From: Bacteroidota bacterium
Lineage (GTDB): Bacteria; Bacteroidota; Bacteroidia; AKYH767-A; OLB10
Direction of reading: 5' to 3'
NCBI GenBank assembly: GCA_016713925.1
Contig: JADJOH010000002.1
Span: 371,701-435,700, forward strand
DNA: 64,000 nucleotides
The position numbers and the translations under genes are program-made. Of this stretch, positions 7,166 to 61,929 are shown piece after piece. The notes under the pieces are model-generated. The model did not search any database and was not told the DNA's origin. It saw nothing but the letters and a program-made list of their open reading frames with translations. Each line of letters starts with the position of its first letter. Within the stretch, counting starts at the first letter, position 1.

Positions 7166-7200
7166 GGCTTCCGGCTGCGGGCTACCGGCTGCGGGCTTCT
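7166..7200. repeat. Heptanucleotide tandem array GGCTNNN (5 units)
   Basis: ggcttcc ggctgcg ggctacc ggctgcg ggcttct, in the intergenic region upstream of hutU. Confidence 0.7.
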
Positions 7201-9106: not shown

Positions 9107-9133
9107 TGGGGCGCTCTCTGCGTTCGCCGGGGG

Positions 9134-9265
9134 GATCGTCTCGTCATTACTCAACTCGTCTTCGACGATTTGAATCTGACGAGACTGGGAGGAGGGGAGG
9201 ATCGTCTCGTCATTACTCAATTCGTCTTCGACGATTTGAATCTGACGAGACTGGGAGGAGAAAAT
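9134..9265. repeat. Two tandem copies of a 66-bp element with nested inverted repeats (gtctcgtca...tgacgagac)
   Basis: The copies begin at 9134 and 9200 and are near-identical. They lie downstream of hutU and upstream of the Trx-ApbE operon. A second short duplicated motif taccttgcgtYcccCGCG follows at 9300-9345. Confidence 0.7.
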
Positions 9266-9478
9266 TCATCCCTCAATTCTGATATGAAATTCCGTGTTCC
9301 TCCTGTTTACCTTGCGTCCCCCGCGCTTACCTTGCGTTCCCCGCGGTTAAGTCACAAGTTTAATAACCAATTAGAATTTAAAAATGAATGACCAATTCTT
9401 ATTTTGATCAATTAAAATTGTACTTGATTTTCATTAAAATTCAAATTTGAAAGTATATAAACCCGTATAGACAGAAAC

Positions 9479-16746: not shown

Positions 16747-19164
16747 ATGAATAATTACCTCGACCTTCTCAACGAAGTACAGCGTGAAGCGGTGATGCAA
16801 ACAGATGGACCGGTGATGATCATCGCAGGCGCCGGCTCAGGAAAAACGAGGGTCCTCACTTTCCGCATTGCCTATCTCATCGAAAAAGGCAACGACCCCT
16901 TTAACATATTGGCACTGACTTTTACCAACAAGGCTGCGCGTGAAATGAAAGAGCGTATTTCCAAAGTAGTGGGGAATGAAGCCCGGAACTTATGGATGGG
17001 AACTTTCCACTCTGTATTTGCAAGAATATTGCGTAGCGAAGCCGATAAAATCAACTACCCTTCCAACTTCACCATCTATGATTCCGACGATAGCAAAAGT
17101 CTGATCAGGGATATTTTGAAAGAGCAAAACCTGGACGATAAAACGTACAAGCCTTCAGCAGTATTGAACAGAATTTCCTCTGCAAAAAACAACCTCTTCA
17201 ACTGGCAGGAATACCAGCAAAACAGTGAACTTACAGGAGATGATCAGTCGAGCGGAAAACCAAAGATGGGATTACTCTTTGAATTGTACAGCAAACGTTG
17301 CTTCAAAGCCGGAGCAATGGATTTTGATGATATCCTGTACAATACCTGGAAATTATTTCAGGAACATCCCGATGTACTGTATAAATATCAGACGAAGTTC
17401 AAGTACGTGATGGTAGATGAGTTTCAGGATACCAACTTCGCACAATACATCATCGTGAAAAAATTATCTGCCATGCATCAGAATATTTGTGTAGTGGGAG
17501 ATGATGCACAGAGTATTTATGCCTTTCGCGGTGCCAACATCCAGAATATCCTCAACTTTGAACGTGACTTTCCCGAGATAAAAACATACAAGCTGGAGCA
17601 GAATTACCGCAGCACCAAGACCATAGTTCAGGCGGCCAATTCTGTGATCACCTTCAACAAGAATCAACTTAAAAAAGAAGTCTGGACCGACAATCACCAC
17701 GGTGAAAAAATAAAACTCCTGAAAGCACTCAGTGATAATGAAGAAGGAAATCAGGTAGCCTTAAGCATCTTTGAAGAGAAGATGAACAAACATTACCGCC
17801 ATAAAGATTTCGCTATTCTTTATCGCACCAATGCGCAGAGTCGTTCGATGGAAGAAGCTTTGCGACGAAGAAATATTCCGTATAGGGTATTTGGAGGCGT
17901 TTCCTTCTACAACAGGAAGGAAATTAAAGATCTTCTGGCTTATTTCCGCATGGCGATCAATCCTCTGGACGAAGAAGCGATGAAACGCATCATCAATTAT
18001 CCGGCGAGAGGAATCGGAAAAACCACCATCGACAGAATTGTTGTGCACGCGGCGCAGGAGAATGTTTCGGTGTGGAATGTGCTCGAAAATATTCATGAAT
18101 TCAAAGCCGGTATCAACGGAGGTATCCGTGATAAGGTAGCTGAGTTTGCCGTGATGGTCAGAAGCTGGCAGGTGATGTTGCCCAATCACAGTGCCTATGA
18201 GCTGGCGAGTCATATCGCCTCTGCTTCCGGATTGCTCACCGAACTATACAATGACAGGACCCCGGAAGGTGTCAGTCATTATGAAAACGTCCAAGAACTA
18301 TTGAACGGTATCAAGGAGTTCAGTGAGCATGGAAAAATTCCACTGGAGTCCCCTTCTGCAGAACAGGATCTAAACGCCTTGCGTACTCTTGACCTTTACC
18401 TTCAGGACATCGCCCTCTTAACCGATGCCGACAATGACAAAGACGGTGATGACGATAAAGTTTCACTCATGACCATCCATAGTTCAAAAGGACTGGAGTT
18501 TAAAAATGTATACATCGTCGGACTCGAAGAAAATTTATTTCCCTCACAACTCAGTGTCAATTCACGAACTGATCTCGAAGAAGAACGACGATTGTTTTAT
18601 GTAGCCATCACCAGAGCAGAGATAAAGCTGACATTATCAATGGCGGCTACCCGTTACCGTTGGGGCAACCTGATCATGTGTGAACCCAGCCGGTTTTTAG
18701 AAGAAGTCGATAGTGAATGCATAGAAATGCCGGTACAACGCGGTGAGGCCTTATTTGATCAGGAAGATGAGCGGGGAGGATGGGGTAACTATGGAGGCGG
18801 AGGAGGCGGAGGAAATCGCAGTTTTCAGCGAAATGCGAAACCTTACCGCGGAAATTCACCGAAGTCCGGATCAAGTGCTGCAAAGAGTACCGTTAAACCC
18901 TCACCTGTGACCAACAGCAGCCCGGTACCACAAGGATTCAAAAAAATCAATGTGGCACAACCGGCTCCTCCGGTCAGTGATTTTATTGCGGATGATCCTT
19001 CAAAAATTACGACGGGCGTATTTGTCGAACATCAGCGTTTCGGGCGCGGACAAGTCATCAGCATTGAGGGCCGATCACCGGACCATAAAGCTACTATCCT
19101 TTTTGATGGTCAAGGACAAAAGCAACTGCTTCTGAAATTTGCGAAGCTTAGAGTGGTAGAGTAA
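16747..19164 (+). CDS. ATP-dependent DNA helicase, UvrD/PcrA/Rep family, with Gly-rich C-terminal extension
   Basis: 805 aa. Walker A AGAGSGKTRVLTFRIAYL, UvrD-helicase motifs throughout, and a C-terminal GGWGNYGGGGGGGN stretch. Confidence 0.85.
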   Translation: MNNYLDLLNEVQREAVMQTDGPVMIIAGAGSGKTRVLTFRIAYLIEKGNDPFNILALTFTNKAAREMKERISKVVGNEARNLWMGTFHSVFARILRSEADKINYPSNFTIYDSDDSKSLIRDILKEQNLDDKTYKPSAVLNRISSAKNNLFNWQEYQQNSELTGDDQSSGKPKMGLLFELYSKRCFKAGAMDFDDILYNTWKLFQEHPDVLYKYQTKFKYVMVDEFQDTNFAQYIIVKKLSAMHQNICVVGDDAQSIYAFRGANIQNILNFERDFPEIKTYKLEQNYRSTKTIVQAANSVITFNKNQLKKEVWTDNHHGEKIKLLKALSDNEEGNQVALSIFEEKMNKHYRHKDFAILYRTNAQSRSMEEALRRRNIPYRVFGGVSFYNRKEIKDLLAYFRMAINPLDEEAMKRIINYPARGIGKTTIDRIVVHAAQENVSVWNVLENIHEFKAGINGGIRDKVAEFAVMVRSWQVMLPNHSAYELASHIASASGLLTELYNDRTPEGVSHYENVQELLNGIKEFSEHGKIPLESPSAEQDLNALRTLDLYLQDIALLTDADNDKDGDDDKVSLMTIHSSKGLEFKNVYIVGLEENLFPSQLSVNSRTDLEEERRLFYVAITRAEIKLTLSMAATRYRWGNLIMCEPSRFLEEVDSECIEMPVQRGEALFDQEDERGGWGNYGGGGGGGNRSFQRNAKPYRGNSPKSGSSAAKSTVKPSPVTNSSPVPQGFKKINVAQPAPPVSDFIADDPSKITTGVFVEHQRFGRGQVISIEGRSPDHKATILFDGQGQKQLLLKFAKLRVVE

Positions 19165-19167
19165 ATT

Positions 19168-19202
19168 CGCTTCCGGCTTCCGGCTTCCAGCTGCCGGCTG
19201 TG
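19168..19202. repeat. Heptanucleotide tandem array GGCTNNN
   Basis: cgcttcc ggcttcc ggcttcc agctgcc ggctgtg, immediately after the helicase stop. Confidence 0.7.
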
Positions 19203-19431
19203 ATCGCGAACCGCAATAAGTTTGAAAAATAGTTGCCTAATGTACATTGTTGCTGTGTTCCTGAATTAATTTGAGATACCATAACAAAAGTCTTTCCTTT
19301 AAAATTATCACCTGCGCTTCTGAAACAGAGCAGGCAACTCTGAGCTGATCTTGCTGATTTCTACTAGTGGATGATTGCATATGAGAATATGGTTCGCAAG
19401 GTTTAACTACACTCTTATGCTAAAACAAATG

Positions 19432-19522
19432 AGCCGGTAGCTGGCAGCCGGAAGCCGGAAGCAAAGAGCTGGAAGCCGGTAGCTGGCAGCCGGAAGCAGA
19501 GAAATGCTAGCCGGAAGCAAAA
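19432..19522. repeat. Heptanucleotide tandem array AGCNNNN (13 units), inverted relative to the 19168 array
   Basis: agccggt agctggc agccgga agccgga agcaaag agctgga agccggt agctggc agccgga ... Confidence 0.7.
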
Positions 19523-19629
19523 TGTTGTATCGGAATTATAATTAATAGATGAACATAAATTTCACTAAAATGATAATCCAATAATCCTTAACTTTGGCAG
19601 TAAATAATACAGTACTTTCCTATAAATAC

Positions 19630-20262
19630 ATGCAATACAACACCTCCAGAAAATCGCTGATCATTTCAGAATATGGGCGCTCCATACAGGAAATGGTAGA
19701 ATTCACCGTTCAGCTTGAAGACCGTGACGAGCGCACCAAAGCCGCAAAGACCATTGTAAATGCTATGGCCATTCTCAACCCGCAGTTACGCGAATTTGTC
19801 GATTATAAACATAAACTTTGGGATCATCTCTATATCATCTCCGACTTCAAACTGGATTGCGATTCCCCTTTTCCGATGCCCGACAAAGACCTCACCCATG
19901 TGAAGCCATCTCCCATGCCCTACCCTCAGAAAAACATTAAACTGAGACATTATGGCAGTACGATCGAGCTTATGATCAAGGAAGCGTTAAAGATGGAAGA
20001 TACTCCGGAACGTCAGCAGGTGGTGGAAGCCATTGCCAATTTTATGAAGATGAGTTACCTCACCTGGAACCGCGACTCGGTGGATGATGATGTCATCAGA
20101 GAACAATTGAAGGAATTTTCAGGAGGAGTATTAGAGATTCGTGATGATATGAAACTCACGAACAAATTCATCGATCTGAAAGAAGCAGACAGAAGAAATC
20201 AACGAAATAAAAATCTCAGAAAACAACGTACCCCTACCAATGGATACAGCCGTGGCAAATAA
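19630..20262 (+). CDS. DUF4290 domain protein
   Basis: Likely start MQYNTSRKSLIISEYGRSIQEMV (the track ORF begins 12 codons earlier). DUF4290 is characteristically upstream of murA in Bacteroidota. Confidence 0.6.
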   Translation: MQYNTSRKSLIISEYGRSIQEMVEFTVQLEDRDERTKAAKTIVNAMAILNPQLREFVDYKHKLWDHLYIISDFKLDCDSPFPMPDKDLTHVKPSPMPYPQKNIKLRHYGSTIELMIKEALKMEDTPERQQVVEAIANFMKMSYLTWNRDSVDDDVIREQLKEFSGGVLEIRDDMKLTNKFIDLKEADRRNQRNKNLRKQRTPTNGYSRGK

Positions 20263-20281: not shown

Positions 20282-21592
20282 ATGACAGGTGGCAGTTTTG
20301 AAATCACCGGTGGCTGCAAACTGAATGGTACTATTGAACCTCAGGGAGCCAAGAATGAAGCCTTGCAAATACTTTGTGCAGTTTTGCTTACTGAAGAAGA
20401 ATGCATCATAGAAAATGTTCCGGAGATACGGGATGTCATCAAGCTGATTGAATTGCTCGGAAAAATGGGCGTACAGACCCAACGCTTAAAGCCCAATACG
20501 TTCTCCTTTACGGCTAAAAACATTGATCTCAGTTATCTCGAGACAAAAGAATTTGCCAAATTGGGAGCTGCTTTAAGAGGGTCTATCATGATTATTGGTC
20601 CCTTGCTTGCCCGCTATGGGAAAGCCGCGATTCCAAAGCCGGGTGGAGATAAAATCGGACGCAGACGGTTAGATACCCATTTTATCGGTTTCCAAAATCT
20701 GGGTGCAAAATTTGATTTCGACAGCAATGATAATTTTTACCGGGTAGATGCGCAGCACCTGAAAGGAACGTATATGCTCCTCGACGAAGCTTCGGTTACA
20801 GGAACAGCGAATATCGTGATGGCCGCAGTGATGGCTGAAGGCACGACCACGATTTACAATGCCGCTTGCGAACCGTATTTGCAACAGCTCTGCAAAATGC
20901 TGAATCAAATGGGAGCTAAAATCACAGGTATTGGCTCCAACTTGCTGGTGATTGAAGGGGTGAAATCATTAAAAGGAACGAAACACCGCATCCTGCCGGA
21001 TATGATAGAAGTCGGTTCTTTTATCGGTCTGGCTGCCATGACGCAGAGTGAGTTGACCATTAAAAATGTAGGATTACAACATCTCGGCATTATTCCTTCT
21101 ACTTTTCAACGGCTGGGAATAAAGATGGAATTCAGAGGGGACGATATTTATATTCCGGCTCAGGAGATGTATGAGATCGATACCTTTATTGACGGATCTA
21201 TACTCACGATTGCCGATCAGATATGGCCCGGTTTCACACCGGACTTACTCAGTGTGATCCTCGTTACTGCTACTCAGGCTAAAGGAACTATTCTTGTCCA
21301 CCAGAAAATGTTTGAAAGCAGGTTGTTCTTTGTCGATAAACTTATCGATATGGGAGCACAGATCATCCTCTGTGATCCGCATCGTGCAACCGTTATCGGT
21401 CTTGCCCGTAAACACCCCTTGAAAGGCATTCAAATGACCTCACCCGATATTCGTGCAGGAGTAGCCCTCCTGATCGCCGCCATGAGTGCAAAAGGCAAAA
21501 GCGTGATCCATAATATCGAACAAATTGATCGCGGCTATGAAAGAATTGACGAACGTTTGAACGCGTTAGGAGCTCAGATAAAAAGAGTTTAA
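20282..21592 (+). CDS. murA: UDP-N-acetylglucosamine 1-carboxyvinyltransferase
   Basis: MTGGSFEITGGCKLNGTIEPQGAKNEALQILCAVLL... is MurA throughout. An alternative upstream start at 20240 overlaps the DUF4290 gene. Confidence 0.85.
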   Translation: MTGGSFEITGGCKLNGTIEPQGAKNEALQILCAVLLTEEECIIENVPEIRDVIKLIELLGKMGVQTQRLKPNTFSFTAKNIDLSYLETKEFAKLGAALRGSIMIIGPLLARYGKAAIPKPGGDKIGRRRLDTHFIGFQNLGAKFDFDSNDNFYRVDAQHLKGTYMLLDEASVTGTANIVMAAVMAEGTTTIYNAACEPYLQQLCKMLNQMGAKITGIGSNLLVIEGVKSLKGTKHRILPDMIEVGSFIGLAAMTQSELTIKNVGLQHLGIIPSTFQRLGIKMEFRGDDIYIPAQEMYEIDTFIDGSILTIADQIWPGFTPDLLSVILVTATQAKGTILVHQKMFESRLFFVDKLIDMGAQIILCDPHRATVIGLARKHPLKGIQMTSPDIRAGVALLIAAMSAKGKSVIHNIEQIDRGYERIDERLNALGAQIKRV

Positions 21593-21600
21593 TGTTCAAA

Positions 21601-21782
21601 GTTTAAGGTTTAAGGTTTAAGGTTTAAAGTTTAAGGTTTAAAGTTTAAAGTTTCAATAATTAAGTTGAAAGATTTGAAGATTAAAGTTAAAGGTTGAAAT
21701 AGCCAGAAGCCAGAAGCTAGAAGTCGGTAGCCGGGAGCCAGGAGCCGAGCCCGTAGCCGGGAGCCGGAAGCCGGAAGCCAAG
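21601..21782. repeat. Composite heptanucleotide tandem array: (GTTTAAG)x8, degrading through TTGAAAG-like units into (GAAGCCA / AGCCGGA)x12 with 7-nt phase largely kept
   Basis: Read directly from the sequence. The array begins 9 nt after the murA stop. Confidence 0.75.
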
Positions 21783-25023: not shown

Positions 25024-25130
25024 TTATATGAAGGAGGAGAAGATGTACAGGATCACAAAACTAATGGTTTGTTGCGGTAATCTTCGATGGATAGTCGCAA
25101 AGTTATAAAAATGATGGAGATGCAAAGATT

Positions 25131-25215
25131 TGATGATTTGAAAATTGTGATGATTTGAAAATTGTGATGATTTGATCGCGAAGTCTTGCGTTGTGATGAT
25201 TTGAATGCGAAGTGA
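25131..25215. repeat. Tandem 17-nt repeat tgatgatttgaaaattg (about 2 copies plus degenerate copies with core GATGATTTGA)
   Basis: Seen between the two GNAT genes. The core motif recurs near 26100-26150 and 29470-29490. Confidence 0.6.
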
Positions 25216-29409: not shown

Positions 29410-29687
29410 TTGAATTATGAATTTTTTTTGATGAAGGTTGAATTAAAATATTTCGAATGGTTATCGAATGATGGAATTAGATGATTTGAAAAGACCTGAG
29501 TGCCGGAGTATTTGATATTTTGAATAGTACAGCATCTTGGTCTAGCTTATAACTAACACGTACACTATTCTGTACGTCGATTCCCGGTACTTAGAATCAA
29601 ATTGAACACATCGTTATTCGCTGAAGTCTTACCTTAATTACTAAGGCCCCCTGTTCCATAAGCACACTCCAATAATTCAACACTCCA

Positions 29688-29720
29688 ATTCTGAATTCTG
29701 AATTCTGAATTCTGAATTCA
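29688..29720. repeat. Heptanucleotide tandem repeat (ATTCTGA)x4.7
   Basis: The repeat overlaps the stop codon of the acyl-CoA ligase gene. Confidence 0.7.
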
Positions 29721-31490
29721 ATCGGCGTATATTTTATCTACCAATGCTTTATTCGCTTCCAGAATTACTTTTCGCTTTAAGCTGAGCTTCGGCGTCATCT
29801 CTCCTCTGTCAATACTCCATTCCCTGGGGAGGAGTTCTATTTTTTTAATGGTTTCATAGGAACCTAAACCTTCATTCACCGCATTCACTTCCTTCATGAT
29901 TCTGTTTTTGACACGTTCGATTTTTATGAGTTCCTCGTTGGTAGCCGGTATTGGTATTTGTTTCCTTTCGCACCATTCTTTCACAAAAGCGAAACCCGGA
30001 ACAATCAACGCTGCAGCGAACCGCTGATGCTCGCCTATCACCATCACTTGTTCAATGAAGCGCGACTCCTTCAGTTTGTTTTCGATGATTTGAGGAACGA
30101 TGTACTTTCCTCCTGAAGTTTTGAAAATCTCCTTCTTACGGTCGGTGATTTTGAGATAGACTCCATCTACCATCTCGCCGATATCACCGGTATGCAGCCA
30201 GCCCTCTTCGTCGATCATCTCTGCGGTGAGGTCAGGGCGTTTGTAATAACCCAACATCACGTTCGGACCTTTGCAAAGAATTTCTCCATCTTCGGCAATG
30301 CGCACCGTTACCTTTTCTATTGTTTTTCCAACCGTACCGAATTTCAATCCTCCCGGCTTTAGTGTATTTACTGCAATAACAGGACTGGTTTCTGTGAGAC
30401 CATATCCCTCCAAAATAGGAATATCCGCTGCCCAGAAAATTCTCGCAAGGCGGGGCTGAAGGGCTGCACCACCGGAAATGGCGGCCTTGACTTTCCCTCC
30501 CAATGCTTCCTGCCACTTGCTGAAAATCAGCTTTCGCGCGATCTTCAATTGCCATTCATAAAAAGCACCATTGGCGGAATTGATTTCATACTTTAATCCC
30601 AGATCTACCGCCCAGAAAAACAACTTTTTCTTGATTCCGGTGAGGTCGGCACCTTTTGCAATGATCCGGTCATAGACTTTCTCAAAGAGACGCGGAACAC
30701 ATCCAAAAATTTCCGGCTGTACTTCTTTCAGATTATCGGCTACTTTTTCAATACTCTCTGCATAATAAATTCCGACACCCAGATACATATAGAGATAGCT
30801 CAATACTCTTTCATACACGTGATTCAGGGGGAGGAAACTCAGTGCCCTGCTATTGCTGTCAACAGGGGCCAGCGTTTGTGCTGCCAGCAACTGACTGATA
30901 ATGTTATCATGCGACAACATGACTCCTTTCGGAAAGCCGGTGGTTCCACTCGTATATAATAAAGTGGCGAGGTCATTGGCGCCAATGGTATCGCAAATAC
31001 TCTTGACTTTTTCAGGAGCAGGATGGGCTTTACCCAATGCAACAATTTCTGTCCAATGCGGTTTTCCGGGAATGGTGTCGAAACAATACATCGCCTTAAT
31101 TCCAGGCATCGACTGAACTACCGGTGCTATCTTTTCCCAAAGTTCTGCACTTGATACAAAGACATATTTCACTTCGGCATCATTGAGAATAAACCGAAGA
31201 TCATCCGTGGAAACCGTTGGATAAACCGGCACATGAATACCACCGGCCATCATGAGACCCAAATCAATGAAATTCCATTCGGGTCGGTTATTACTCAGGG
31301 TAGCCACTTTATCTCCCTTTTGCAAGCCCATCTCTAGAAAACCATAGCTCACCAACTCCGTTTGAAGCAGCAACTCAGCAGCGGAGACCGGCAGCCATTG
31401 GCCGTTTACCTTAGCAGCGAGTGCATCCTTTTTATCAGGATATAATTCACGATAGCGGTTTAATAAATCGAAGAGACGGGTCACTGACAT
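29718..31490 (-). CDS. Long-chain fatty acid--CoA ligase (AMP-dependent synthetase/ligase)
   Basis: 590 aa. AMP-binding motif LLYTSGTTGFPKGVMLSHDNI. Confidence 0.8.
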   Translation of the reverse strand: MSVTRLFDLLNRYRELYPDKKDALAAKVNGQWLPVSAAELLLQTELVSYGFLEMGLQKGDKVATLSNNRPEWNFIDLGLMMAGGIHVPVYPTVSTDDLRFILNDAEVKYVFVSSAELWEKIAPVVQSMPGIKAMYCFDTIPGKPHWTEIVALGKAHPAPEKVKSICDTIGANDLATLLYTSGTTGFPKGVMLSHDNIISQLLAAQTLAPVDSNSRALSFLPLNHVYERVLSYLYMYLGVGIYYAESIEKVADNLKEVQPEIFGCVPRLFEKVYDRIIAKGADLTGIKKKLFFWAVDLGLKYEINSANGAFYEWQLKIARKLIFSKWQEALGGKVKAAISGGAALQPRLARIFWAADIPILEGYGLTETSPVIAVNTLKPGGLKFGTVGKTIEKVTVRIAEDGEILCKGPNVMLGYYKRPDLTAEMIDEEGWLHTGDIGEMVDGVYLKITDRKKEIFKTSGGKYIVPQIIENKLKESRFIEQVMVIGEHQRFAAALIVPGFAFVKEWCERKQIPIPATNEELIKIERVKNRIMKEVNAVNEGLGSYETIKKIELLPREWSIDRGEMTPKLSLKRKVILEANKALVDKIYAD

Positions 31491-45530: not shown

Positions 45531-47765
45531 ATGTCTTTCGCTACAGAAGAACTAACGACGGTTGAAACTGCTAAAAAACTGGGTTTGTTACCCGAAGAAT
45601 TTGAAAAGATCAAAGAATTTCTAGGCCGGGTTCCCAATTTTACCGAATTAAGTATTTATTCCGTGATGTGGTCGGAGCATTGTTCGTATAAAAACTCCAT
45701 CACCTGGTTAAAAACGCTGCCAAAGAAAGGTCCGCATTTGCTGGCTGAAGCCGGGGAAGAAAACGCGGGACTGGTATCGATTGGTGATGGTCTGGCCTGT
45801 GCATTCAAAATCGAATCACATAATCATCCCTCCGCCATCGAACCCTATCAGGGAGCTGCCACAGGTGTTGGTGGTATCAACCGCGATATTTTTACGATGG
45901 GTGCTCGACCGATCGCTCAATTAAATTCCTTGCGCTTTGGAAATCCGGAGCTGGCAAAAACGCAATGGCTGATGCGTGGTGTGGTGAAAGGCATTGGTGA
46001 TTATGGAAATGCTTTTGGTGTGCCTACTGTTGGAGGAGAAGTTTTCTTTGATGAATCCTTCAACGTGAATATTTTAGTCAATGCCATGTCGGTGGGCATT
46101 GTAAAGGCGGGTGAAACGGTCTCTGCCATTTCACAAGGTGTGGGCAATCCTGTTTATATTGTCGGATCTTCTACAGGCAAGGACGGTATCCATGGTGCCA
46201 CCTTTGCATCGGGCGATTTGCATGCTGATTCCCATGAGGATTTACCTTCTGTACAAGTAGGAGATCCGTTTATGGAGAAATTATTACTGGAAGCCACTCT
46301 TGAAATCATCAAGACCGGTGCAGTTGTAGGCATGCAGGATATGGGTGCTGCCGGAATTATTTGTTCTACGAGTGAGATGTCCGCGAAAGGAAAGCATGGT
46401 ATGAATGTCTGGCTGGATAAAGTTCCTACCCGACAGCCGAACATGAAAGGATGGGAGATTTTACTCAGTGAGTCTCAGGAGAGAATGCTGGTGATCGTTC
46501 AAAAGGGACGTGAGGCGGAAGTGGAGAAAATTTTTGAGAAATGGGATTTGAACTGCACACAAATCGGCGAGGTCATTGCAGGAGAGCGATTGCATTTCTT
46601 TATGCATGGAGAACAGCTGGCTGATGTCCCGGCAGATTCGCTCGTTCTGGGTGGTGGAGCTCCTATTTACAAGCGGGAATTCAAAGAGCCGGCCTACATC
46701 GCCCAAAACAAAGCCTTCGACATCAACAAAGTTCCTGTACCTTCGGATATGCGGCCCGTTATGAACCATCTGGTCAGACATCCGAACATTGCTTCGAAAC
46801 GCTGGATATATACACAGTATGATTCGATGGTAGGCACCATCAATATGAGCACCAACAAACCCAGTGATGCCGCTATTGTAGATGTTCGCGGGACGAAAAA
46901 AGCATTGGCGCTCGTTGTAGATTGCAATTCCCGTTATGTACATAGTGATCCGGAGACGGGCTGTGCCATTGCTGTAGCTGAAGCTGCGCGAAACATTGTT
47001 TGTTCCGGCGGAGAGCCCTCGGCAGTTACCAATTGTTTGAACTTCGGAAACCCTTATAATCCGGAAGTGTACTGGCAGTTTGTGCAGGCCATCAAAGGGA
47101 TGTCGTCCGCATGTACCCGCTTTGAAACACCGGTGACAGGAGGAAATGTCAGTTTTTACAATCAATCGAAAAATGAGCAGGGAGAAGTTCCGGTATTCCC
47201 CACACCCACGATAGGAATGGTGGGCATATTGCCGCAGAAGAATCATCAGATTACGTTGGATTTTAAAAAGGAAGGCGATGTACTCCTCCTGCTGGGTGCT
47301 TCACAGGATGATATTGCCTCTTCAGAATATTTATATTCCTATTGTAAGATAAAAAATAGTCCGGCTCCCTACTTCAACCTCGAAGAAGAATTTTTAGTAC
47401 AGGATCTCGTGAAAACCCTCATCAAAAACAATCTCATTGAAAGTGCGCATGATGTTTCGGATGGAGGATTATTCATTTGTTTACTGGAATCAGGAATGCC
47501 ACGCGGTCTCGGATTTCGCATTGACACCGACGAGGAGTATCGCAAGGACGCCTATCTTTTCGGAGAGGCGCAGGGCAGAATTGTTGTGAGTGTCAGTCCC
47601 GAAAAACTCGACGCCTTTGTTGAACTGGTCGCTGCTTCTGATATCGATTTCACCAATCTGGGCGAAGTAGGAGGAAATGCCATTGTAATTGACGAGGAAG
47701 AATATGGAAGTGTACATACTTTTAAGGAGAAGTATGATCATGCGATTGGGGATATGATGTCATAG
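45531..47765 (+). CDS. purL: Phosphoribosylformylglycinamidine synthase subunit PurL
   Basis: 744 aa. SEHCSYKNS and AIR-synthase-related domains. Confidence 0.9.
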   Translation: MSFATEELTTVETAKKLGLLPEEFEKIKEFLGRVPNFTELSIYSVMWSEHCSYKNSITWLKTLPKKGPHLLAEAGEENAGLVSIGDGLACAFKIESHNHPSAIEPYQGAATGVGGINRDIFTMGARPIAQLNSLRFGNPELAKTQWLMRGVVKGIGDYGNAFGVPTVGGEVFFDESFNVNILVNAMSVGIVKAGETVSAISQGVGNPVYIVGSSTGKDGIHGATFASGDLHADSHEDLPSVQVGDPFMEKLLLEATLEIIKTGAVVGMQDMGAAGIICSTSEMSAKGKHGMNVWLDKVPTRQPNMKGWEILLSESQERMLVIVQKGREAEVEKIFEKWDLNCTQIGEVIAGERLHFFMHGEQLADVPADSLVLGGGAPIYKREFKEPAYIAQNKAFDINKVPVPSDMRPVMNHLVRHPNIASKRWIYTQYDSMVGTINMSTNKPSDAAIVDVRGTKKALALVVDCNSRYVHSDPETGCAIAVAEAARNIVCSGGEPSAVTNCLNFGNPYNPEVYWQFVQAIKGMSSACTRFETPVTGGNVSFYNQSKNEQGEVPVFPTPTIGMVGILPQKNHQITLDFKKEGDVLLLLGASQDDIASSEYLYSYCKIKNSPAPYFNLEEEFLVQDLVKTLIKNNLIESAHDVSDGGLFICLLESGMPRGLGFRIDTDEEYRKDAYLFGEAQGRIVVSVSPEKLDAFVELVAASDIDFTNLGEVGGNAIVIDEEEYGSVHTFKEKYDHAIGDMMS

Positions 47766-47888
47766 GCTACCGGCTTCCGGCTTCCGGCTACCGGCTGCGG
47801 GCTTCTGGCTGCTGGCTACTTGCTTTTGACCACTTACTTATATGAAAGCTTCAGGCTGCGGGCTGCGGGCTACAGGTGTCGGGCTATA
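47765..47888. repeat. Heptanucleotide tandem arrays GGCTNNN (8 units at 47765-47820, 5 units at 47854-47888)
   Basis: The array begins inside the purL stop codon: ggctacc ggcttcc ggcttcc ggctacc ggctgcg ggcttct ggctgct ggctact. Confidence 0.75.
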
Positions 47889-49351: not shown

Positions 49352-49439
49352 CAATGAAAATCCTACCCAATTATGACCTTTAAAACACTCATATCACATA
49401 GCAAAGCGGGTAGCTGGCAGCTGATAGCTCAAATCCAAA

Positions 49440-50040
49440 CAAAGAAATCACGAGGGGGGCCCCAAACAACCTTTTCCCCAAAAAATTGGAATTATAAAAA
49501 TTAAATTTTACCCCACCCGGGGGAAAAAAGGGCCCCAAAACCTTAACCCCAAAACCTGGCGACGGGGGGGGGAGGGGGCGGAAGGAATTACACCCAAACA
49601 AAGGGGGGGGAAAAAGCCGCCCCAAAGGCGGGGGGGGGCGCACCTAAAAATAAAAAAAGAAAAGGATTTAAAAAAAAAAAAAAGGAGAAAAAAAAAAAAA
49701 CCCACCGGAAACGCCCCAGGGGCCCTGAGCATTAAAAAAAAAAAATAAGAGGAGGAGAAAAAAGCAAACGGGGGGGGCCGGCCCCCCCCCCCCCCCCCGC
49801 GGGGGGGGGGGGGGGGGGGGGGGGGGGCCCGGGAAATTATTCCAGCGGGACTCCAAAAAAAAAAAAATAAACCCACCAAAAAACCCCAATAACGACAAAC
49901 AAAAAAAAAAAAAAAAAAAATAAAAGGGACAAATTTAAAAAAAGGGCCCGGGGGAAAAAAAGGGAAAAACCCCCCAAACGGGGGGCGCGGGGGAGCCCAA
50001 AAAAAACCCCAAAAAAAGGGGAAAAGGGGGGGGGGGGGGG
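49440..50040. other. Low-complexity homopolymer-rich tract (long A, C and G runs, G run over 25 nt), probable assembly or base-calling artifact
   Basis: Homopolymer runs of A, C and G, with T almost absent. ORFs predicted here translate to poly-P, poly-G and poly-F. Confidence 0.6.
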
Positions 50041-50145
50041 GAACGGTAAGATTTAGTTGAAAACATCGAAAGTCCATTTTGTCAATCAACACTACCCAAC
50101 ACGAGATTAAAAAACGCAACCGATAGATTATAACCCTTTGCCAGT

Positions 50146-50187
50146 TGCCCCAAGCCCGCAGCCGGAAACCGGAAGCCAAAAAGCTAC
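50146..50187. repeat. Heptanucleotide tandem array AGCCNNN (inverted relative to the 47765 array)
   Basis: agcccgc agccgga aaccgga agccaaa aagctac. Overlaps the 3' end of the 50184-50534 ORF. Confidence 0.65.
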
Positions 50188-50534
50188 AATGCCCCCACCC
50201 TCTTTTCCTTCGGACGAATAAATATATAGTAGCTCAAGACAATGATGACACCGATGGTGAAAAACACAATAGCTATTGGGCGCAAGGTATCGTTGAAGAA
50301 AAATTCTCCGATCATCCAGATGGAATTGGCACAAAGCCAGCTCACCACTGCTATGTTGTGAAAAAGTTCAGAGTTGAGGGCCCGGTGTTTCCAGGTGAGG
50401 TAGATGGCCACAGCAAGGGTGGGTAGGATCATGATTAAACCGGGAATTTTCAAATCCAGCACCCAACAGGTATCCTTGATCAGCCATAGCACGATATGAA
50501 AGTTCTCGTATTCGCGTAATTTGGTATTCATCAT
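50184..50534 (-). CDS. Small hypothetical membrane protein
   Basis: 116 aa with 3 hydrophobic segments. Confidence 0.4.
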   Translation of the reverse strand: MMNTKLREYENFHIVLWLIKDTCWVLDLKIPGLIMILPTLAVAIYLTWKHRALNSELFHNIAVVSWLCANSIWMIGEFFFNDTLRPIAIVFFTIGVIIVLSYYIFIRPKEKRVGAL

Positions 50535-58419: not shown

Positions 58420-61400
58420 CTAGCGTAAAAAGATTAGCGGCATTGAGTAAACAATTCCGGAAGTCAGGTTCAGAGAATGACTCACGGTAACGGGTACATT
58501 TAAACGCACATCACCACCGGGTTTATCCACTATCATGCGACGTATAACAGGAGGGAACAAGAGATGACCTCTTATTTGTTGCGTTGTGTTTCCATTCAGT
58601 GTAACAAAACCGGCACCTGAATTAGCAAAAGTAATAGCCGTAGTTGAACTGTCGGTTAAAATATCACCGCCAAATGTACAGATACTATTACTTGCAGGTG
58701 ATAAAACACCGGCACCTGTTTGAATAAAAGAGGCATTGCTGTTAAAGTCATCGGGATTAGAATTTGCCAATACGAAACTACCGGTTCCACTATTTTTAAT
58801 GATGACGTGCTGATTAAAAATATTTCCACCATTTGAAGTATTTCCTCCAGCGCCGTTCTTTTCGACACGGGCTGTTGAATTAAAAACTGCACCGTGCAAA
58901 TACACTTGAGGAAAACTGAAGTCAACCGCTCCATTAAAAGTTGAATTTAAACTTAAATACAGCGCCGCCGTTCCGCTCGTCATGGCGAGTGATTGAGGAG
59001 TATTTCCTACTTGAGTAAATCTTCTCAAATTCAACTCACCTCCCGTATAATTCCCTGCTCCGATTAATATCCTTTTCCCATCTGCCAGTTGAGAGGAACC
59101 ATTGCCACCGCCGAAACGGATGCCTGCTGAGCCTGTACTATTTAGAATCAGATCCGCGTTGAACTCGGTTACACCTCCATTGTATCCCACATGAATTAAT
59201 CCTGATCCTGCGTTGGTAAATTCAACGACATCATTAAAAACATCTCTGGTGGAATTCGCCAACAAGAGATATCCGGTTCCGGAATTCATAAAAGAAGAAG
59301 AAGCATTAAAAATATTATTCCCATTACCGGCATCGTTTGCTGCCCCGGTTTTAGTGACAGAAATTGTTCCATTAAAAGTCGCACCATTAAAACAGATACC
59401 TCCACTGTTTATGGAAACATCTCCATTCAAAACCAAAGCAGGTCCCAGATTAAGTATGGCCCCTGTCCCCAGTGTAAAGGAAAGAGGGTTGGCACCCGTC
59501 TGTGTGAAGCGGGAAAGGTTTAATGAACCGGAATTGAAGCCCGATGTTCCCACAATAAATGTTTTACCTGTGGCCAACGAAGATGTACCTGTGCTCGCAC
59601 CAAACCGTATGCTTCCGTTACTTGTAGAGGAAACTATAATATTTTCATTAAACTCTGTATTAGTGCCTCTGTGTGCTAAATAAATTATTCCACTTGAATT
59701 TGTCGTTGCTGAAAGAACTCCATTATAAATATCTCTCACTGAATTAGAAAAAACCATATAGCCCGTACCATTATTCACGATAGAAAGAGAATCGCTAAAA
59801 ACGTTATTTCCGTTTCCGGTATTATTTCCTGCCCCTGTTTTTAACAAACTCACTTTTCCACCAAATGTACCACCGTTCATACACACTCCTCCGGCTTCCA
59901 CATTTAAAGGACAAGCCATCTGAGCTGCCGGACCAATGGTTACAGTAGCATTTGGTCCGGTAGAAATAGTTTGAGGAATTGTTGCTGACATGGTTACAGC
60001 ACCTAACATCAGATCTCCGCTCACAAAACCTGCATTCCCTGCTAATATGGATTTTCCATCTGCCAAAATAGCCGTTCCATTGCCTGTGCTGATTCGAACT
60101 CCACCTCCACCACCTGAGCTGTTGAGGAAAACATTTTCGTTAAAGAGTGTATTCGTTCCCTTATGCGCCACATAAATGGTACCTGTACCATTACTGCTAA
60201 AAGTAGCCGGAGCATTAAAAATATCTCTTGTACTATTCGACATGACCATATAGCCTGTGCCATTGTTAATCACGTGTACGGAATCATTGTAGGTAGTATT
60301 GCCACTGCCATTATCATTCGAGCTTCCTGTCTTTACTGCTGTTAACTTCCCGTTGAAAGTACAACCGGATAAACACATTCCACCACTTGTTACAGTTACA
60401 TCATCTGCAAAGGAGGTAGAAGGTCCTAGTGTAAGCGTAACCGCATTACCCAAACTTAAATCAAAGTTTCCGGCCGGAAAAGCAATACCGCCCAATTGTA
60501 AACTTCCGCTTTCAAATCCCGCCCCACCTACTCTGATGGATTTACCCGCTGCCAGCATTGAAGTACCTGCAGCATTACCAAAACGAATGCTTCCTGTAGA
60601 AGTACTACTTACATTCACATGATCATTGAACTGAGTATTGACACCGTTATGTGCGACATAAAGGACTCCGGTACCAGTACTGTTAAATGTCACTTCTCCA
60701 TTGAAAATATCTCGGGTAGAATTGGAAAAAGACATGAATCCTGTTCCCTCGTTGGTTATCACGGTGGTACCATTGTAGGTATTATTCCCTGAACCGTGCG
60801 TGTTGGCAGCTCCGTTCTTAGTGATATTTACATCGCCATTAAACACAACCCCGTTCAGACTAACGCCCGGACTTACCGCTATAAAATCAGATGGAAAAGT
60901 AGTTGCAGGTCCCAATGTTAAAACAGCACTTCCGTTTAATGTAAGTGACTGATCTGAACTACCGGCTATGGACATACGTGATAATTGAAGTGTTCCGCCG
61001 GAAAACCCGGTATTGCCAATAGTTAATTGTTTATCTGCTGCCAGTATGGACGTACCATTGCTTCCTCCAATTCTAATTCCTCCCCCGGTACTGTTAAAAA
61101 TCAGATTCTCATTAAACTGTGTATTTGTTCCATTATAGGCGATGTAGAGGACTCCGGCGCCCGTGCTATTTAAAGTTAAAGGAGCATTATAAATATCGCG
61201 GGTAGAATTCGAAAAAATCAAGTACCCCGTTCCTGAATTGGTAATAAAAGTGGAATCATTGAAAGTATTATTCCCTGAAGCAACATCATTGCTTGCACCT
61301 GTTTTAGTCAACCGGGTGATCCCATTAAATGTAGTATTTCTTACAGTCACAATTCCTGAATTCACTTCAATATCCGTATGAATAGTCGGTCCGGCTGAAC

Positions 61401-61929
61401 CGCTTCCGAATACGGTGGAACTGCCATTGGTCACCATGTTGCCAGTACCGGTTGAAGTGGCAATAGTGCCACCGTTGAACGTTGCGTTTCCATTAACAAC
61501 CAGGTTTCCTCCTCTTAGTTCTAAAGTGGAAGTCGTATTCATCACAAAACTACCTGCTAATGTCAATGAAAATCCATTCATATCTAACTGTGAACCGGAA
61601 TTCATTGTTATATCTGATGTATTTACGGCATTGTCTAAAACAGGATATCTGCTCAAGGAGGAAGGGATCGTGATTTGATCATTAATTGTAGGCAATCCCG
61701 AAGGCGTCCAGTTGTTTGAGTTGGACCATAAACTATCAGAAGAGCCATTCCAGGTATAACTGATTCCGGCAACAGCGGTGGTATTGACACCCAAATTCCA
61801 ATAAATCAATCCTGCAACAAAGGCAAAAACAGAGAAAATACCTCCTGCAATCAGATAGCGTTGCACGAGTTTAGTCCTTTGTTGTTGTTTGATTTTCAAC
61901 CTTTTAACTTTAGTTTTAGCTCTTTCCAT
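58420..61929 (-). CDS. Very large repetitive Gly/Thr/Asn/Ser-rich beta-helix-like adhesin (N-terminal portion; signal anchor)
   Basis: 1169 aa. N-terminal TM/signal anchor. Six or more internal repeats of about 160 aa (e.g. GNNTFNDSTFITNSGTGYLIFSNSTRDIYNAP...). Confidence 0.6.
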   Translation of the reverse strand: MERAKTKVKRLKIKQQQRTKLVQRYLIAGGIFSVFAFVAGLIYWNLGVNTTAVAGISYTWNGSSDSLWSNSNNWTPSGLPTINDQITIPSSLSRYPVLDNAVNTSDITMNSGSQLDMNGFSLTLAGSFVMNTTSTLELRGGNLVVNGNATFNGGTIATSTGTGNMVTNGSSTVFGSGSAGPTIHTDIEVNSGIVTVRNTTFNGITRLTKTGASNDVASGNNTFNDSTFITNSGTGYLIFSNSTRDIYNAPLTLNSTGAGVLYIAYNGTNTQFNENLIFNSTGGGIRIGGSNGTSILAADKQLTIGNTGFSGGTLQLSRMSIAGSSDQSLTLNGSAVLTLGPATTFPSDFIAVSPGVSLNGVVFNGDVNITKNGAANTHGSGNNTYNGTTVITNEGTGFMSFSNSTRDIFNGEVTFNSTGTGVLYVAHNGVNTQFNDHVNVSSTSTGSIRFGNAAGTSMLAAGKSIRVGGAGFESGSLQLGGIAFPAGNFDLSLGNAVTLTLGPSTSFADDVTVTSGGMCLSGCTFNGKLTAVKTGSSNDNGSGNTTYNDSVHVINNGTGYMVMSNSTRDIFNAPATFSSNGTGTIYVAHKGTNTLFNENVFLNSSGGGGGVRISTGNGTAILADGKSILAGNAGFVSGDLMLGAVTMSATIPQTISTGPNATVTIGPAAQMACPLNVEAGGVCMNGGTFGGKVSLLKTGAGNNTGNGNNVFSDSLSIVNNGTGYMVFSNSVRDIYNGVLSATTNSSGIIYLAHRGTNTEFNENIIVSSTSNGSIRFGASTGTSSLATGKTFIVGTSGFNSGSLNLSRFTQTGANPLSFTLGTGAILNLGPALVLNGDVSINSGGICFNGATFNGTISVTKTGAANDAGNGNNIFNASSSFMNSGTGYLLLANSTRDVFNDVVEFTNAGSGLIHVGYNGGVTEFNADLILNSTGSAGIRFGGGNGSSQLADGKRILIGAGNYTGGELNLRRFTQVGNTPQSLAMTSGTAALYLSLNSTFNGAVDFSFPQVYLHGAVFNSTARVEKNGAGGNTSNGGNIFNQHVIIKNSGTGSFVLANSNPDDFNSNASFIQTGAGVLSPASNSICTFGGDILTDSSTTAITFANSGAGFVTLNGNTTQQIRGHLLFPPVIRRMIVDKPGGDVRLNVPVTVSHSLNLTSGIVYSMPLIFLR

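What the first reader, a model, noticed from the sequence alone, without database searches (positions are those of the whole stretch)
21601..21782. Dispersed family of heptanucleotide tandem-repeat arrays (GGCTNNN / AGCCNNN, plus GTTTAAG) abutting stop codons
At least eight intergenic sites contain tandem 7-nt units with a conserved GGCT (or reverse AGCC) core. They are 7166-7200, 19168-19202, 19432-19522, 21601-21782, 47765-47820, 47854-47888, 49405-49432 and 50146-50187. Several begin within or immediately after a stop codon (purL, murA, the helicase, and the 50184 ORF). The 21601 array starts as eight GTTTAAG units and drifts, largely keeping 7-nt phase, into GAAGCCA/AGCCGGA units. This suggests generation by a slippage or replication process rather than conservation of a protein-binding site. 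Heptameric short tandemly repeated repetitive sequences (STRRs) are known from heterocystous cyanobacteria. A comparable family in a Bacteroidota genome would be unusual and could be useful for strain typing. Function, if any (terminators, RNA structure, phase variation), is unknown.
Basis: seen in the sequence. Interest (0 to 1): 0.6.

Follow-up and report, generated by a model that had tools for sequence, protein, structure and literature searches.

The report
Hypervariable 7-base repeat arrays after genes
The spaces between genes in this uncultured Bacteroidota genome hold many short runs of a 7-base unit (mostly GGCTNCC) that differ in length and spelling in every related strain; they are real, but they belong to an already described class of slippage-prone bacterial repeats with no demonstrated function.

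Summary
The window has about ten period-7 tandem arrays: eight of an RGCT-N-C-Y family, one GTTTAAR and one AATTCAG. There are none at periods 5, 6 or 8-11, and none in shuffled sequence. All are intergenic, and five start in or within 4 nt of a stop codon (P about 5e-6). Independent assemblies of sister strains (about 97-98% identical coding DNA) carry arrays at the same sites, but every strain differs in copy number (steps of 7 nt) and in unit spelling. Relatives with MurA identity of 96% or less lack them or carry different heptamers. The arrays have no consistent RNA structure, no Rfam match, no shared flanks and no strand rule. At three loci, the window's stop-abutting array sits where sister strains have a stable palindromic hairpin. 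Two array units are visibly copied from the gene's own end. The best explanation is slippage-generated heptanucleotide long simple-sequence repeats, analogous to cyanobacterial STRRs and Xanthomonas (GGGANTN)n arrays. This class is already described, including in a few Bacteroidetes. It is a new member of a known kind. It would be useful for strain typing, but no function is shown. It remains unexplained why one unit family recurs at eight loci.

The parts
7166..7200 (+). RGCTNCY heptamer array, 5 units (GGCTTCC GGCTGCG GGCTACC GGCTGCG GGCTTCT), in the divergent spacer between the DUF3332 gene (-) and the urocanase gene (+)
   Evidence: TRF; sequence; phased units; Pfam of flanking genes
19168..19202 (+). 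Array A, 5 units (cGCTTCC GGCTTCC GGCTTCC AGCTGCC GGCTGTG), starting 3-4 nt after the UvrD-helicase stop (19162-19164). It has 5 units in the window, L126 and L127, and 4 units in L121 and L125
19203..19431 (.). 229-nt non-repetitive core bracketed by the inverted arrays A and B. Present only in the array-bearing species group; 1.4% pairwise divergence; function unknown
   Evidence: I5: 34 nt, 91% complementary, 232 nt apart; z = -3.8 with the arrays as stem
19432..19522 (-). Array B, about 13 units in AGCCGGA orientation (the reverse complement of GGCTTCC-type units), 70-160 nt upstream of the DUF4290/murA promoter-like TAACTTTG box. It is 87 or 80 nt long in different strains
21586..21656 (+). 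(GTTTAAR)n array, about 9-10 units, starting inside murA's last codons (GAG TTT AA). It has 57 nt of repeat in the window, 64 in L126, 3 units in L127 and 1 unit in L121/L125
21657..21700 (+). Degenerate GTTGAAA/GATTAAA-like heptamers (an old part of the GTTTAAR array). No substitutions among 5 strains
21701..21782 (-). Array C, about 12 units in AGCCNGR orientation including one 5-nt unit, ending about 55 nt upstream of the thioredoxin-gene promoter-like box TATTTTTG. All 5 strains differ (68-82 nt)
29687..29719 (-). (GAATTCA/AATTCAG)x4.7 array starting inside the TGA stop of the AMP-binding ligase gene (29718..31490, -). L121 has a perfect 36-nt palindrome at this place, whose outer arm is this unit. 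L129 has about 30 units of an unrelated heptamer in the same spacer
47765..47820 (+). RGCTNCY array, 8 units, whose first base is the G of purL's TAG stop. L130 has 3 units. L131/L132 have a hairpin followed by about 6 differently spelled units
47854..47888 (+). Second purL-downstream array: 3 clean units (GGCTGCG GGCTGCG GGCTACA) plus 2 degenerate ones
49405..49432 (-). Weak array, 3-4 degenerate units (AGCGGGT AGCTGGC AGCTGAT AGCT), downstream of the 213-aa hydrolase-like gene. The sequence is confirmed by L132
   Evidence: (D2)
50146..50187 (-). Array of 4-5 units, read on the minus strand as GGCTTCC GGTTTCC GGCTGCG GGCTTGG, directly downstream of the stop of the 116-aa ORF (50184..50534, -). 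L130 has a differently spelled array at the same place

Best explanation
These are heptanucleotide long simple-sequence repeats: hypervariable minisatellite-like arrays (VNTRs) that arise and turn over by strand slippage in 7-nt steps during replication, possibly helped by unequal exchange between units. They lie in intergenic DNA that selection leaves free, mainly the stretch between a stop codon and the next gene's promoter. Shown: the period is strictly 7, and length differences between strains are multiples of 7. Homogeneous parts of arrays are unstable, while degenerate parts and flanks are stable. Arrays are gained, lost or respelled within a few percent of sequence divergence. Two arrays copy their unit from the local gene end. 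Inferred: the preference for 7 nt reflects a property of the replication machinery (Mrazek's polymerase-contact hypothesis). The stop-codon adjacency is inherited from palindromic, terminator-like hairpins that sit on the stop codon in sister strains and that nucleate, or alternate with, the arrays. The arrays themselves have no conserved sequence-specific function. The recurrence of one unit family (RGCTNCY, with shared variants TCC, ACC, GCG, GCC and TCT) at eight loci is not explained by slippage alone. It implies a common seed, exchange between arrays, or a unit-specific bias.
For: Period specificity: 6 arrays at period 7 and 0 at periods 5, 6 and 8-11 in the window, and the same in relatives. 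In 842 kb of cross-phylum loci, the non-selected arrays number 58 at period 7 against 10, 8 and 6 at periods 6, 8 and 9, with many different units. Slippage signature: array A is 33 or 26 nt, array B 87 or 80 nt, the GTTTAAR block 57 or 64 nt, and the purL array 8 or 3 units. Arrays show 7-25% substitutions and 5-30% gap positions between strains, against 1.6-4.5% in flanking genes. The degenerate segment 21657-21700 shows 0%. Lineage specificity: relatives at 96% MurA identity or less have no arrays at the uvrD and murA sites, or have other heptamers there (TTGTTAG/AGTCTAA; GCCTTTT type). Local seeding: the GTTTAAR unit equals murA's GAGTTTAA end, and the GAATTCA unit equals the outer arm of the L121 palindrome that overlaps the TGA stop. 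Hairpin/array alternation occurs at the murA, purL and AMP-ligase stops; the hairpins fold with z = -4.4 to -9.9. There is no consistent structure (z from -5.0 to +1.6), no Rfam family, no terminator-like sites at the arrays, no shared flanks, and both orientations occur (4 plus, 4 minus). Precedent with the same properties: Xanthomonas (GGGANTN)n and Nostoc arrays (PMC4692102), heptamer arrays in Bacteroidetes (PMC4679880), and the heptanucleotide LSSR class with its slippage hypothesis.
Against: One unit family recurs at 8 of 10 array sites in 64 kb. Positions 2-4 and 6 are conserved. The unit variants are discrete and shared across 3-5 loci, with G at position 5 tied to G at position 7 (Fisher P = 1e-4). 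Random local seeding would give a different unit at each site. Array A abuts the helicase stop without filling the spacer. The 229-nt core between the inverted arrays is less diverged than the neighbouring genes, which hints at constraint or recent spread. No replication or transcription data were available, so slippage is inferred from comparative patterns only. The direction of change between hairpin and array (loss of the hairpin, or its insertion into an array) is not resolved.
Confidence: 0.7

Rival explanations
1. The RGCTNCY arrays are functional cis elements. They could be a platform on mRNA or single-stranded DNA for a protein that binds in a 7-nt register (cold-shock-domain or S1-like, as MacGregor proposed for TAACTGA repeats). 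Alternatively they could act as 3'-UTR, Rho-loading or terminator-substitute elements where the hairpin terminator is missing.
For: The motif is specific: one unit family at 8 loci, with positions 2-4 and 6 conserved and position 5 free. That is the same profile shape as the Xanthomonas arrays. Stop adjacency is highly non-random, and every RGCTNCY array that abuts a stop is in the pyrimidine-rich GGCUUCC sense orientation (helicase, purL, orf116). The window lacks the hairpins that sister strains carry at the murA and purL stops and has longer arrays there. B. subtilis CspB is reported to bind heptamer repeats with one protein per heptamer (PMC4679880).
Against: Presence, copy number and spelling are not conserved even among strains that are about 97-98% identical, and close relatives lack the arrays entirely. 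Three of the eight arrays are in the opposite orientation relative to transcription. There is no consistent secondary structure and no terminator-like feature. The adjacent genes are unrelated housekeeping genes. The thorough Xanthomonas study of a comparable family found no regulatory role.
Confidence: 0.15
2. The arrays are parts or remnants of a small non-autonomous mobile element. In the block 19168-19522, the inverted heptamer arrays would act as terminal inverted repeats around the 229-nt core. Alternatively, the arrays are spread by exchange among loci.
For: An inverted array pair (34 nt, 91% complementary) brackets a 229-nt core that is present only in the array-bearing species group and shows unusually low divergence. 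Unit variants are shared among loci. A different, clearly dispersed 37-nt palindromic element is polymorphic at the same post-stop positions. Paired inverted heptamer arrays are also seen in Xanthomonas.
Against: The core occurs only once in the window. The arrays share no flanks and show no target-site duplications. The other seven arrays are not paired. Multi-unit haplotype sharing between loci does not exceed random draws from the unit pool (P = 0.12-0.16). No transposase is adjacent.
Confidence: 0.1
3. The arrays are assembly or sequencing artefacts.
For: The window does contain one clear artefact-like region (49440-50040, homopolymer junk) close to two of the weaker arrays.
Against: Arrays occur at the same sites in independent assemblies from JGI (two contigs), NCBI (GCA_016719685.1, GCA_020054605.1, GCA_016719205.1, GCA_020051655.1) and Logan.
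Confidence: 0.01

Closest known systems
Heptanucleotide long simple-sequence repeats (LSSRs) of bacteria (Mrazek, Guo and Shah 2007, as summarised in PMC4679880 and PMC4692102)
   Same: Tandem 7-nt units in arrays longer than chance. They are intergenic, lineage-sporadic, and the dominant long-SSR period. They are attributed to polymerase slippage. The same features were seen here.
   Different: The unit (RGCTNCY) and the host lineage (an uncultured Bacteroidota MAG group) are new. The original paper could not be read here.
Xanthomonas (GGGAATC/GGGANTN)n and Nostoc GGGGA(C/T)T arrays (Rehm et al. 2015, PMC4692102)
   Same: Many intergenic heptamer arrays per genome belong to one heterogeneous unit family, with positions 1-4 and 6 conserved. 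Some form inverted pairs. They lie close to ORF ends and vary extensively in length and sequence between close relatives. The associated genes are unrelated housekeeping genes. No function was found.
   Different: Those units are G-rich and form G-quadruplexes, with a preferred copy number of four. RGCTNCY has no G-tracts and no preferred copy number in this sample.
Cyanobacterial STRR sequences (three tandemly repeated heptanucleotides reported in Calothrix PCC 7601, cited in PMC4692102; unit sequences CCCCAGT, TTGGTCA and CAACAGT from my own recollection of Mazel et al. 1990)
   Same: A few dominant heptamer units per genome, in tandem intergenic arrays dispersed over many loci, with unknown function.
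   Different: The unit sequences and the phylum differ, so this is an analogue and not a member of STRR1-3.
TAACTGA direct repeats of Beggiatoaceae, Cyanobacteria and five Bacteroidetes (MacGregor 2015, PMC4679880)
   Same: A single dominant heptamer is repeated in intergenic DNA. In Gramella and Aequorivita, long arrays are mixed with other heptamers and are absent from the closest relatives' orthologous spacers.
   Different: In 'Maribeggiatoa' those repeats sit just upstream of start codons in a fixed orientation. Here the arrays abut stop codons or lie upstream of promoters, in both orientations.

Membership tests
Heptanucleotide LSSR class (Mrazek 2007) | Tandem repeats with a unit of 5-11 nt (here 7), in arrays longer than expected by chance in that genome | tested here: met
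   TRF; 5 arrays of at least 3 exact in-phase cores against 0 in 200 shuffles
Heptanucleotide LSSR class (Mrazek 2007) | Period 7 over-represented relative to neighbouring periods | tested here: met
   Window: 6 arrays at period 7 and 0 at periods 5, 6 and 8-11. Cross-phylum loci: 58 at period 7 against 10 or fewer at any other period
Heptanucleotide LSSR class (Mrazek 2007) | Length polymorphism in whole units between related genomes (slippage behaviour) | tested here: met
   Differences of 7 nt at arrays A and B and at the GTTTAAR block; 8 against 3 units at purL
Cyanobacterial STRR1-3 | Heptamer units in tandem, dispersed at many intergenic loci of one genome | tested here: met
   About 10 arrays in 64 kb. 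A genome-wide count was not possible
Cyanobacterial STRR1-3 | The specific unit sequences and the host group (heterocystous cyanobacteria) | tested here: not met
   The units are RGCTNCY, GTTTAAR and AATTCAG. The host is an uncultured Bacteroidota MAG
Contingency (phase-variation) SSR loci | The repeat lies inside a coding region or between promoter elements, so that a change in copy number switches expression, typically of surface or antigen genes | tested here: not met
   The arrays start at or after stop codons, or lie 55-160 nt upstream of the promoter-like TAnnTTTG boxes. The neighbours are uvrD, murA, purL, a thioredoxin gene and hutU
Intrinsic terminators | A stable G+C-rich hairpin followed by a U tract | tested here: not met
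   No terminator-like site at the stop-abutting arrays; the one hit near an array, a minus-strand site at 19449-19432 within array B, is no more than shuffles give (5 found against a mean of 3.1). Array folding z-scores range from -5.0 to +1.6. By contrast, the hairpins at the same sites in sister strains fold with z = -4.4 to -9.9
REP/BIME-type extragenic palindromes or MITEs | An imperfect palindrome or terminal inverted repeats with a conserved body, dispersed in many copies, with target-site duplications | tested here: not met
   The arrays are direct repeats with no shared flanks. The single inverted pair encloses a core found only once in the window. The separate 37-nt hairpin element may fit this class, but it is not the array
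CRISPR arrays | Repeats of 23-50 nt separated by unique spacers of similar length | tested here: not met
   The units are 7 nt long and contiguous
Any Rfam RNA family | A match to a curated covariance model | tested here: not met
   0 matches at gathering threshold over the whole window. Only a chance-level IS009 hit (17 bits against a gathering score of 117) in 19100-19650

The most novel reading that the evidence does not exclude
Heptamer arrays and stop-codon-abutting palindromic hairpins are interconvertible states of one post-stop intergenic site. The arrays would be born from, or replaced by, terminator-like palindromes through slipped-strand events. The RGCTNCY unit repertoire would be kept uniform across loci by a lineage-specific factor, such as a protein that reads single-stranded nucleic acid in a 7-nt register or a unit-specific slippage bias. 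If so, this lineage, with its many sequenced sister strains, would give a tractable system for asking why bacterial long SSRs are heptameric and why they cluster at gene ends.
Probability: 0.12. Interest if true: 0.6.

Novelty: new member of a known kind. Interest (0 to 1): 0.3.

Why it matters
Practically, the arrays are ready-made multi-locus VNTR markers for resolving co-existing strains of an uncultured Bacteroidota population. No two of the compared strains share all alleles. They also flag places where short-read assemblies and gene-end annotation are fragile. Conceptually, they add a well-resolved case, with a graded series of relatives, to a problem that has stayed unsolved since the STRR and LSSR descriptions: why bacterial tandem arrays favour a 7-nt unit, why one unit dominates a genome, and why arrays sit at gene ends. 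The alternation between hairpin and array at three stop codons, and the two locally seeded units, are concrete leads. None of this changes what is known about the class.

Tried and rejected
It did not return the source genome. The apparently conserved GGCT core in those hits is a selection effect. Positions 5-7 show no general pattern, so they are generic heptamer arrays and not one family. (2) The metagenome-contig scan for murA loci failed with a tool error and the cap was consumed. (3) Exact-protein look-ups of the window's MurA and of P0003 found nothing. (4) Rfam found nothing, either at gathering threshold on the window or at E-value threshold on 19100-19650 and on the L121 insert. (5) The sigma-70 promoter and terminator scans were uninformative at the arrays; Bacteroidota promoters are not covered by that tool. 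(6) A general hairpin or terminator role was rejected because the folding z-scores are inconsistent. (7) The 229-nt core as a small gene or sRNA is unresolved: it has only 21-47 aa ORFs, no covariation is possible, and there is no family match. (8) Recent block transfer between arrays was rejected because shared multi-unit haplotypes do not exceed the null. (9) A signature of 5-methylcytosine deamination was considered. CG to TG/CA changes at the unit junction make up about half of the variation at positions 7 and 1, but this was not tested further and is not claimed. (10) Mrazek 2007 could not be read directly.

Full report
OBSERVATION. The reported arrays are in the sequence at the stated coordinates. 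Tandem Repeats Finder gives period-7 arrays at 7166-7197, 19169-19199, 19432-19518, 21586-21699, 21701-21780, 47765-47817 and 47854-47871. It also gives an unlisted perfect (AATTCTG)x4.7 at 29687-29719 (sequences). Runs of at least 3 exact in-phase GGCT/AGCC cores number 5, against none in 200 Markov shuffles. I applied one simple detector to periods 5-11. It finds 6 strong arrays at period 7 and none at any other period in the 64 kb. The sites at 49405 and 50146 are real but short and degenerate. In GGCT orientation the unit profile is R-G-C-T-N-C-Y. Positions 2-4 and 6 are nearly invariant, position 5 is free, and positions 1 and 7 vary moderately.

CONTEXT. The flanking genes are ordinary housekeeping genes: a DUF3332 gene and urocanase, a UvrD-type helicase, DUF4290, MurA, a thioredoxin-family protein, PurL, and two small conserved ORFs. 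All arrays are intergenic. Five of the ten start inside or within 4 nt of a stop codon: helicase, murA, purL, the 116-aa ORF and the AMP-ligase gene. If each array were placed uniformly within its own spacer, the probability of five or more doing so is about 4.5e-6. The other arrays lie 55-160 nt upstream of conserved Bacteroidota-type TAnnTTTG boxes of the next gene; I read this from the alignments. Orientation is mixed, 4 plus and 4 minus. The RGCTNCY arrays that abut stops are all in the GGCUUCC sense. The tract 21587-21782 keeps a 7-nt register apart from three slips (+1, +1, -2), but the unit changes abruptly at 21700/21701.

SOURCE AND RELATIVES. MurA homologs identify an uncultured Bacteroidota MAG lineage with a graded series of relatives. 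I fetched orthologous loci from independent assemblies. L121 and L125 come from JGI 3300056831. L126 comes from GCA_020054605.1 and L127 from GCA_016719685.1. L128 (Logan) has 96% MurA identity, L122 (GCA_964534995.1) 95%, L123 and L124 93%, and L129 92%. For the purL side I fetched L130 to L132. Synteny is conserved.

The five closest strains differ by 1.6-4.5% in coding DNA. All of them carry arrays at the same three sites around uvrD, DUF4290 and murA, but no two agree. Array A is 33 or 26 nt, array B is 87 or 80 nt, the GTTTAAR block runs from 1 to about 10 units, and array C is 68-82 nt with different unit spellings. Pairwise substitutions in the arrays are 7-25%, with 5-30% gap positions. 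The short array A is the exception, with only about 2% substitutions but 12% gap positions. The degenerate, non-repetitive stretch 21657-21700 has no substitutions. The purL array has 8 units in the window and 3 in L130, and is spelled differently after a hairpin in L131 and L132.

Relatives at 96% MurA identity or less have no arrays at the uvrD and murA sites. The exception is L123/L124, which carry different heptamers (TTGTTAG, AGTCTAA) directly after the murA stop. L129 has about 30 units of a GCCTTTT-type heptamer in the spacer where the window has AATTCAG. So the period and the permissive sites persist, while the units and the arrays themselves do not.

ORIGIN OF UNITS AND THE STOP-CODON ASSOCIATION. 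Two arrays copy local sequence. GTTTAAR repeats murA's terminal GAG TTT AA. GAATTCA repeats the outer arm of a perfect 36-nt palindrome that, in L121, begins with the ligase gene's TGA stop. At three loci the window's stop-abutting array corresponds to a stable hairpin abutting the stop in sister strains:
- murA: a hairpin in L121, L125 and L127 (z = -4.4 to -5.6).
- purL: a hairpin in L131 and L132 (z = -4.5).
- The ligase gene: a palindrome in L121 (z = -9.9).

The murA and purL hairpins are the same roughly 37-nt palindromic element in opposite orientations, with a compensatory C-G to T-A change. This element is absent from the window. I infer that the arrays' position at stop codons is inherited from post-stop palindromes, which are terminators or REP-like elements. 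Palindromes and arrays replace one another through slipped-strand events or insertion. The direction of that change is not resolved.

WHAT IT IS NOT. There is no Rfam family and no terminator-like feature at the arrays. Folding is inconsistent, with z from -5.0 to +1.6. The arrays share no flanks and show no target-site duplications. They are not an assembly artefact, because independent assemblies agree. The one structured feature is the inverted pair of arrays A and B: 34 nt, 91% complementary, 232 nt apart, with z = -3.8 for the whole block. This pair brackets a 229-nt core that is restricted to this species group and is less diverged (1.4%) than the neighbouring genes. The core has no convincing ORF, no family match and no usable covariation, so it remains unexplained.

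WIDER DISTRIBUTION. The hits were in Acidobacteriota, Gemmatimonadota, Actinomycetota, Planctomycetota, Pseudomonadota and at least nine Bacteroidota genomes or MAGs, and all were true period-7 arrays. Positions 5-7 show no common pattern there, so these are generic heptamer arrays and not one family. In those loci the additional, non-selected arrays are overwhelmingly period 7 (58, against 10 or fewer at any other period), with many different units per locus. In the lower-GC loci, 28 of 34 arrays are intergenic. Eight have an ORF stop within 7 nt and none has a start that close (ORF calling was crude).

COMPARISON WITH WHAT IS KNOWN. Heptanucleotide repeats were reported as the most abundant long-SSR class in most bacterial genomes. 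A proposed cause is that about 7 nt is the length of DNA contacting the polymerase, which would favour slippage (Mrazek 2007, as summarised in PMC4679880, and PMC4692102). The Xanthomonas (GGGANTN)n family is the closest parallel. It has about 186 arrays per genome, positions 1-4 and 6 conserved, occasional inverted pairs, proximity to ORF ends, extensive variation between close relatives, unrelated neighbouring genes, and no function found. Heptamer arrays, including mixed-heptamer intergenic arrays absent from sister species, were described in five Bacteroidetes (PMC4679880). Cyanobacterial STRRs are the classical analogue. The present family meets the defining features of the LSSR class. 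It is analogous to STRRs but not a member of them, because the units and the phylum differ. It fails the tests for contingency loci, terminators, REP/MITE elements and CRISPR arrays.

MECHANISM AND CONFIDENCE. The most likely explanation (0.7) is slippage-generated, selectively tolerated heptanucleotide VNTRs that are nucleated at gene ends. Slippage alone does not explain why one unit family with discrete shared variants recurs at eight loci. TCC and ACC occur in 5 loci each, GCG in 4, and the link between G at position 5 and G at position 7 has Fisher P = 1e-4. Multi-unit haplotypes are not shared beyond chance. The rival explanations are:
- a functional protein-binding or 3'-UTR element (0.15);
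- a mobile or dispersed element (0.1);
- an assembly artefact (0.01).

VERDICT. This is a real, well-replicated feature. It is a new member of a known kind, and interest is 0.3.

Noticed in passing
window 49440-50040: About 600 nt of homopolymer-rich, low-complexity sequence (poly-G 27, poly-C 17, poly-A 29). In L130 the same spacer is 157 nt instead of 832 nt. L132 matches the window up to about 49440 and then continues into a gene pair encoding a 76-aa protein and a PemK-type toxin. This is probably an assembly or consensus artefact at a strain-variable site. The 223-aa ORF listed at 49508-50179 (-) is spurious.
   Followed up: partly
L121 11365-11394 (-), L125 11365-11394 (-), L127 11323-11352 (-); L131 9829-9858 (+), L132 512-541 (+); absent from the window: A dispersed palindromic element of about 37 nt, CATGAAG[C/T]AGAATCGCGAAAAGCGATAC[G/A]CTTCATG, sits directly on the murA stop in three strains. 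In inverted orientation it sits on the purL stop in two others, where its CATGA supplies the TGA. A compensatory C-G to T-A change separates the two loci. Its presence is polymorphic between strains, and it may be REP-like, MITE-like or a terminator. In L121 and L125 it is followed by two further hairpins (105-nt insert, z = -5.6).
   Followed up: partly
window 19203-19431: A 229-nt unique core lies between the inverted heptamer arrays. It is present only in the array-bearing species group and is less diverged (1.4%) than the neighbouring genes. It has no ORF longer than 47 aa and no Rfam match. It could be an sRNA, a small gene or a recently acquired insert.
   Followed up: partly
L121 19360-19410 (minus strand); window 29687-29719: In L121 a perfect 36-nt palindrome, TGAATTCAGTCCCGATAG|CTATCGGGACTGAATTCA, starts with the TGA stop of the AMP-binding ligase gene. 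In the window and L127 its interior is missing and its outer arm GAATTCA is repeated in tandem 4-5 times. This is a direct example of a palindrome and a heptamer array occupying the same site in different strains.
   Followed up: yes
window 9129-9260: Two tandem copies (97% identical) of a 66-nt unit with internal inverted repeats (GATCGTCTCGTC ... GACGAGAC) begin about 20 nt after the urocanase stop. A 20-nt x2.2 repeat follows at 9307-9349. This is another repetitive element placed just after a stop codon.
   Followed up: no
window 25127-25176; L121 15067-15130: A 17-nt tandem repeat (TGATGATTTGAAAATTG) has 2.6 copies in the window and 3.5 in L121, so it is also copy-number variable between strains.
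   Followed up: no
window 60116-61279: Three diverged copies (61-71% identity) of a unit spaced 486 nt apart (a 192-nt matched stretch) lie inside the 1169-aa ORF at 58420-61929 (-). This suggests a protein with 162-residue internal repeats.
   Followed up: no
L098, L037, L105, L095 (cross-phylum loci): Some genomes carry many different heptamer units within 8 kb. L037 has seven extra arrays with seven different units. L098 has AAGGCAG, TCTGCCT, TTATCAA and GGCTAAT arrays of up to 35 units. L095 has 57 units of GGCTGAC. These are extreme heptamer-rich genomes worth a census.
   Followed up: no
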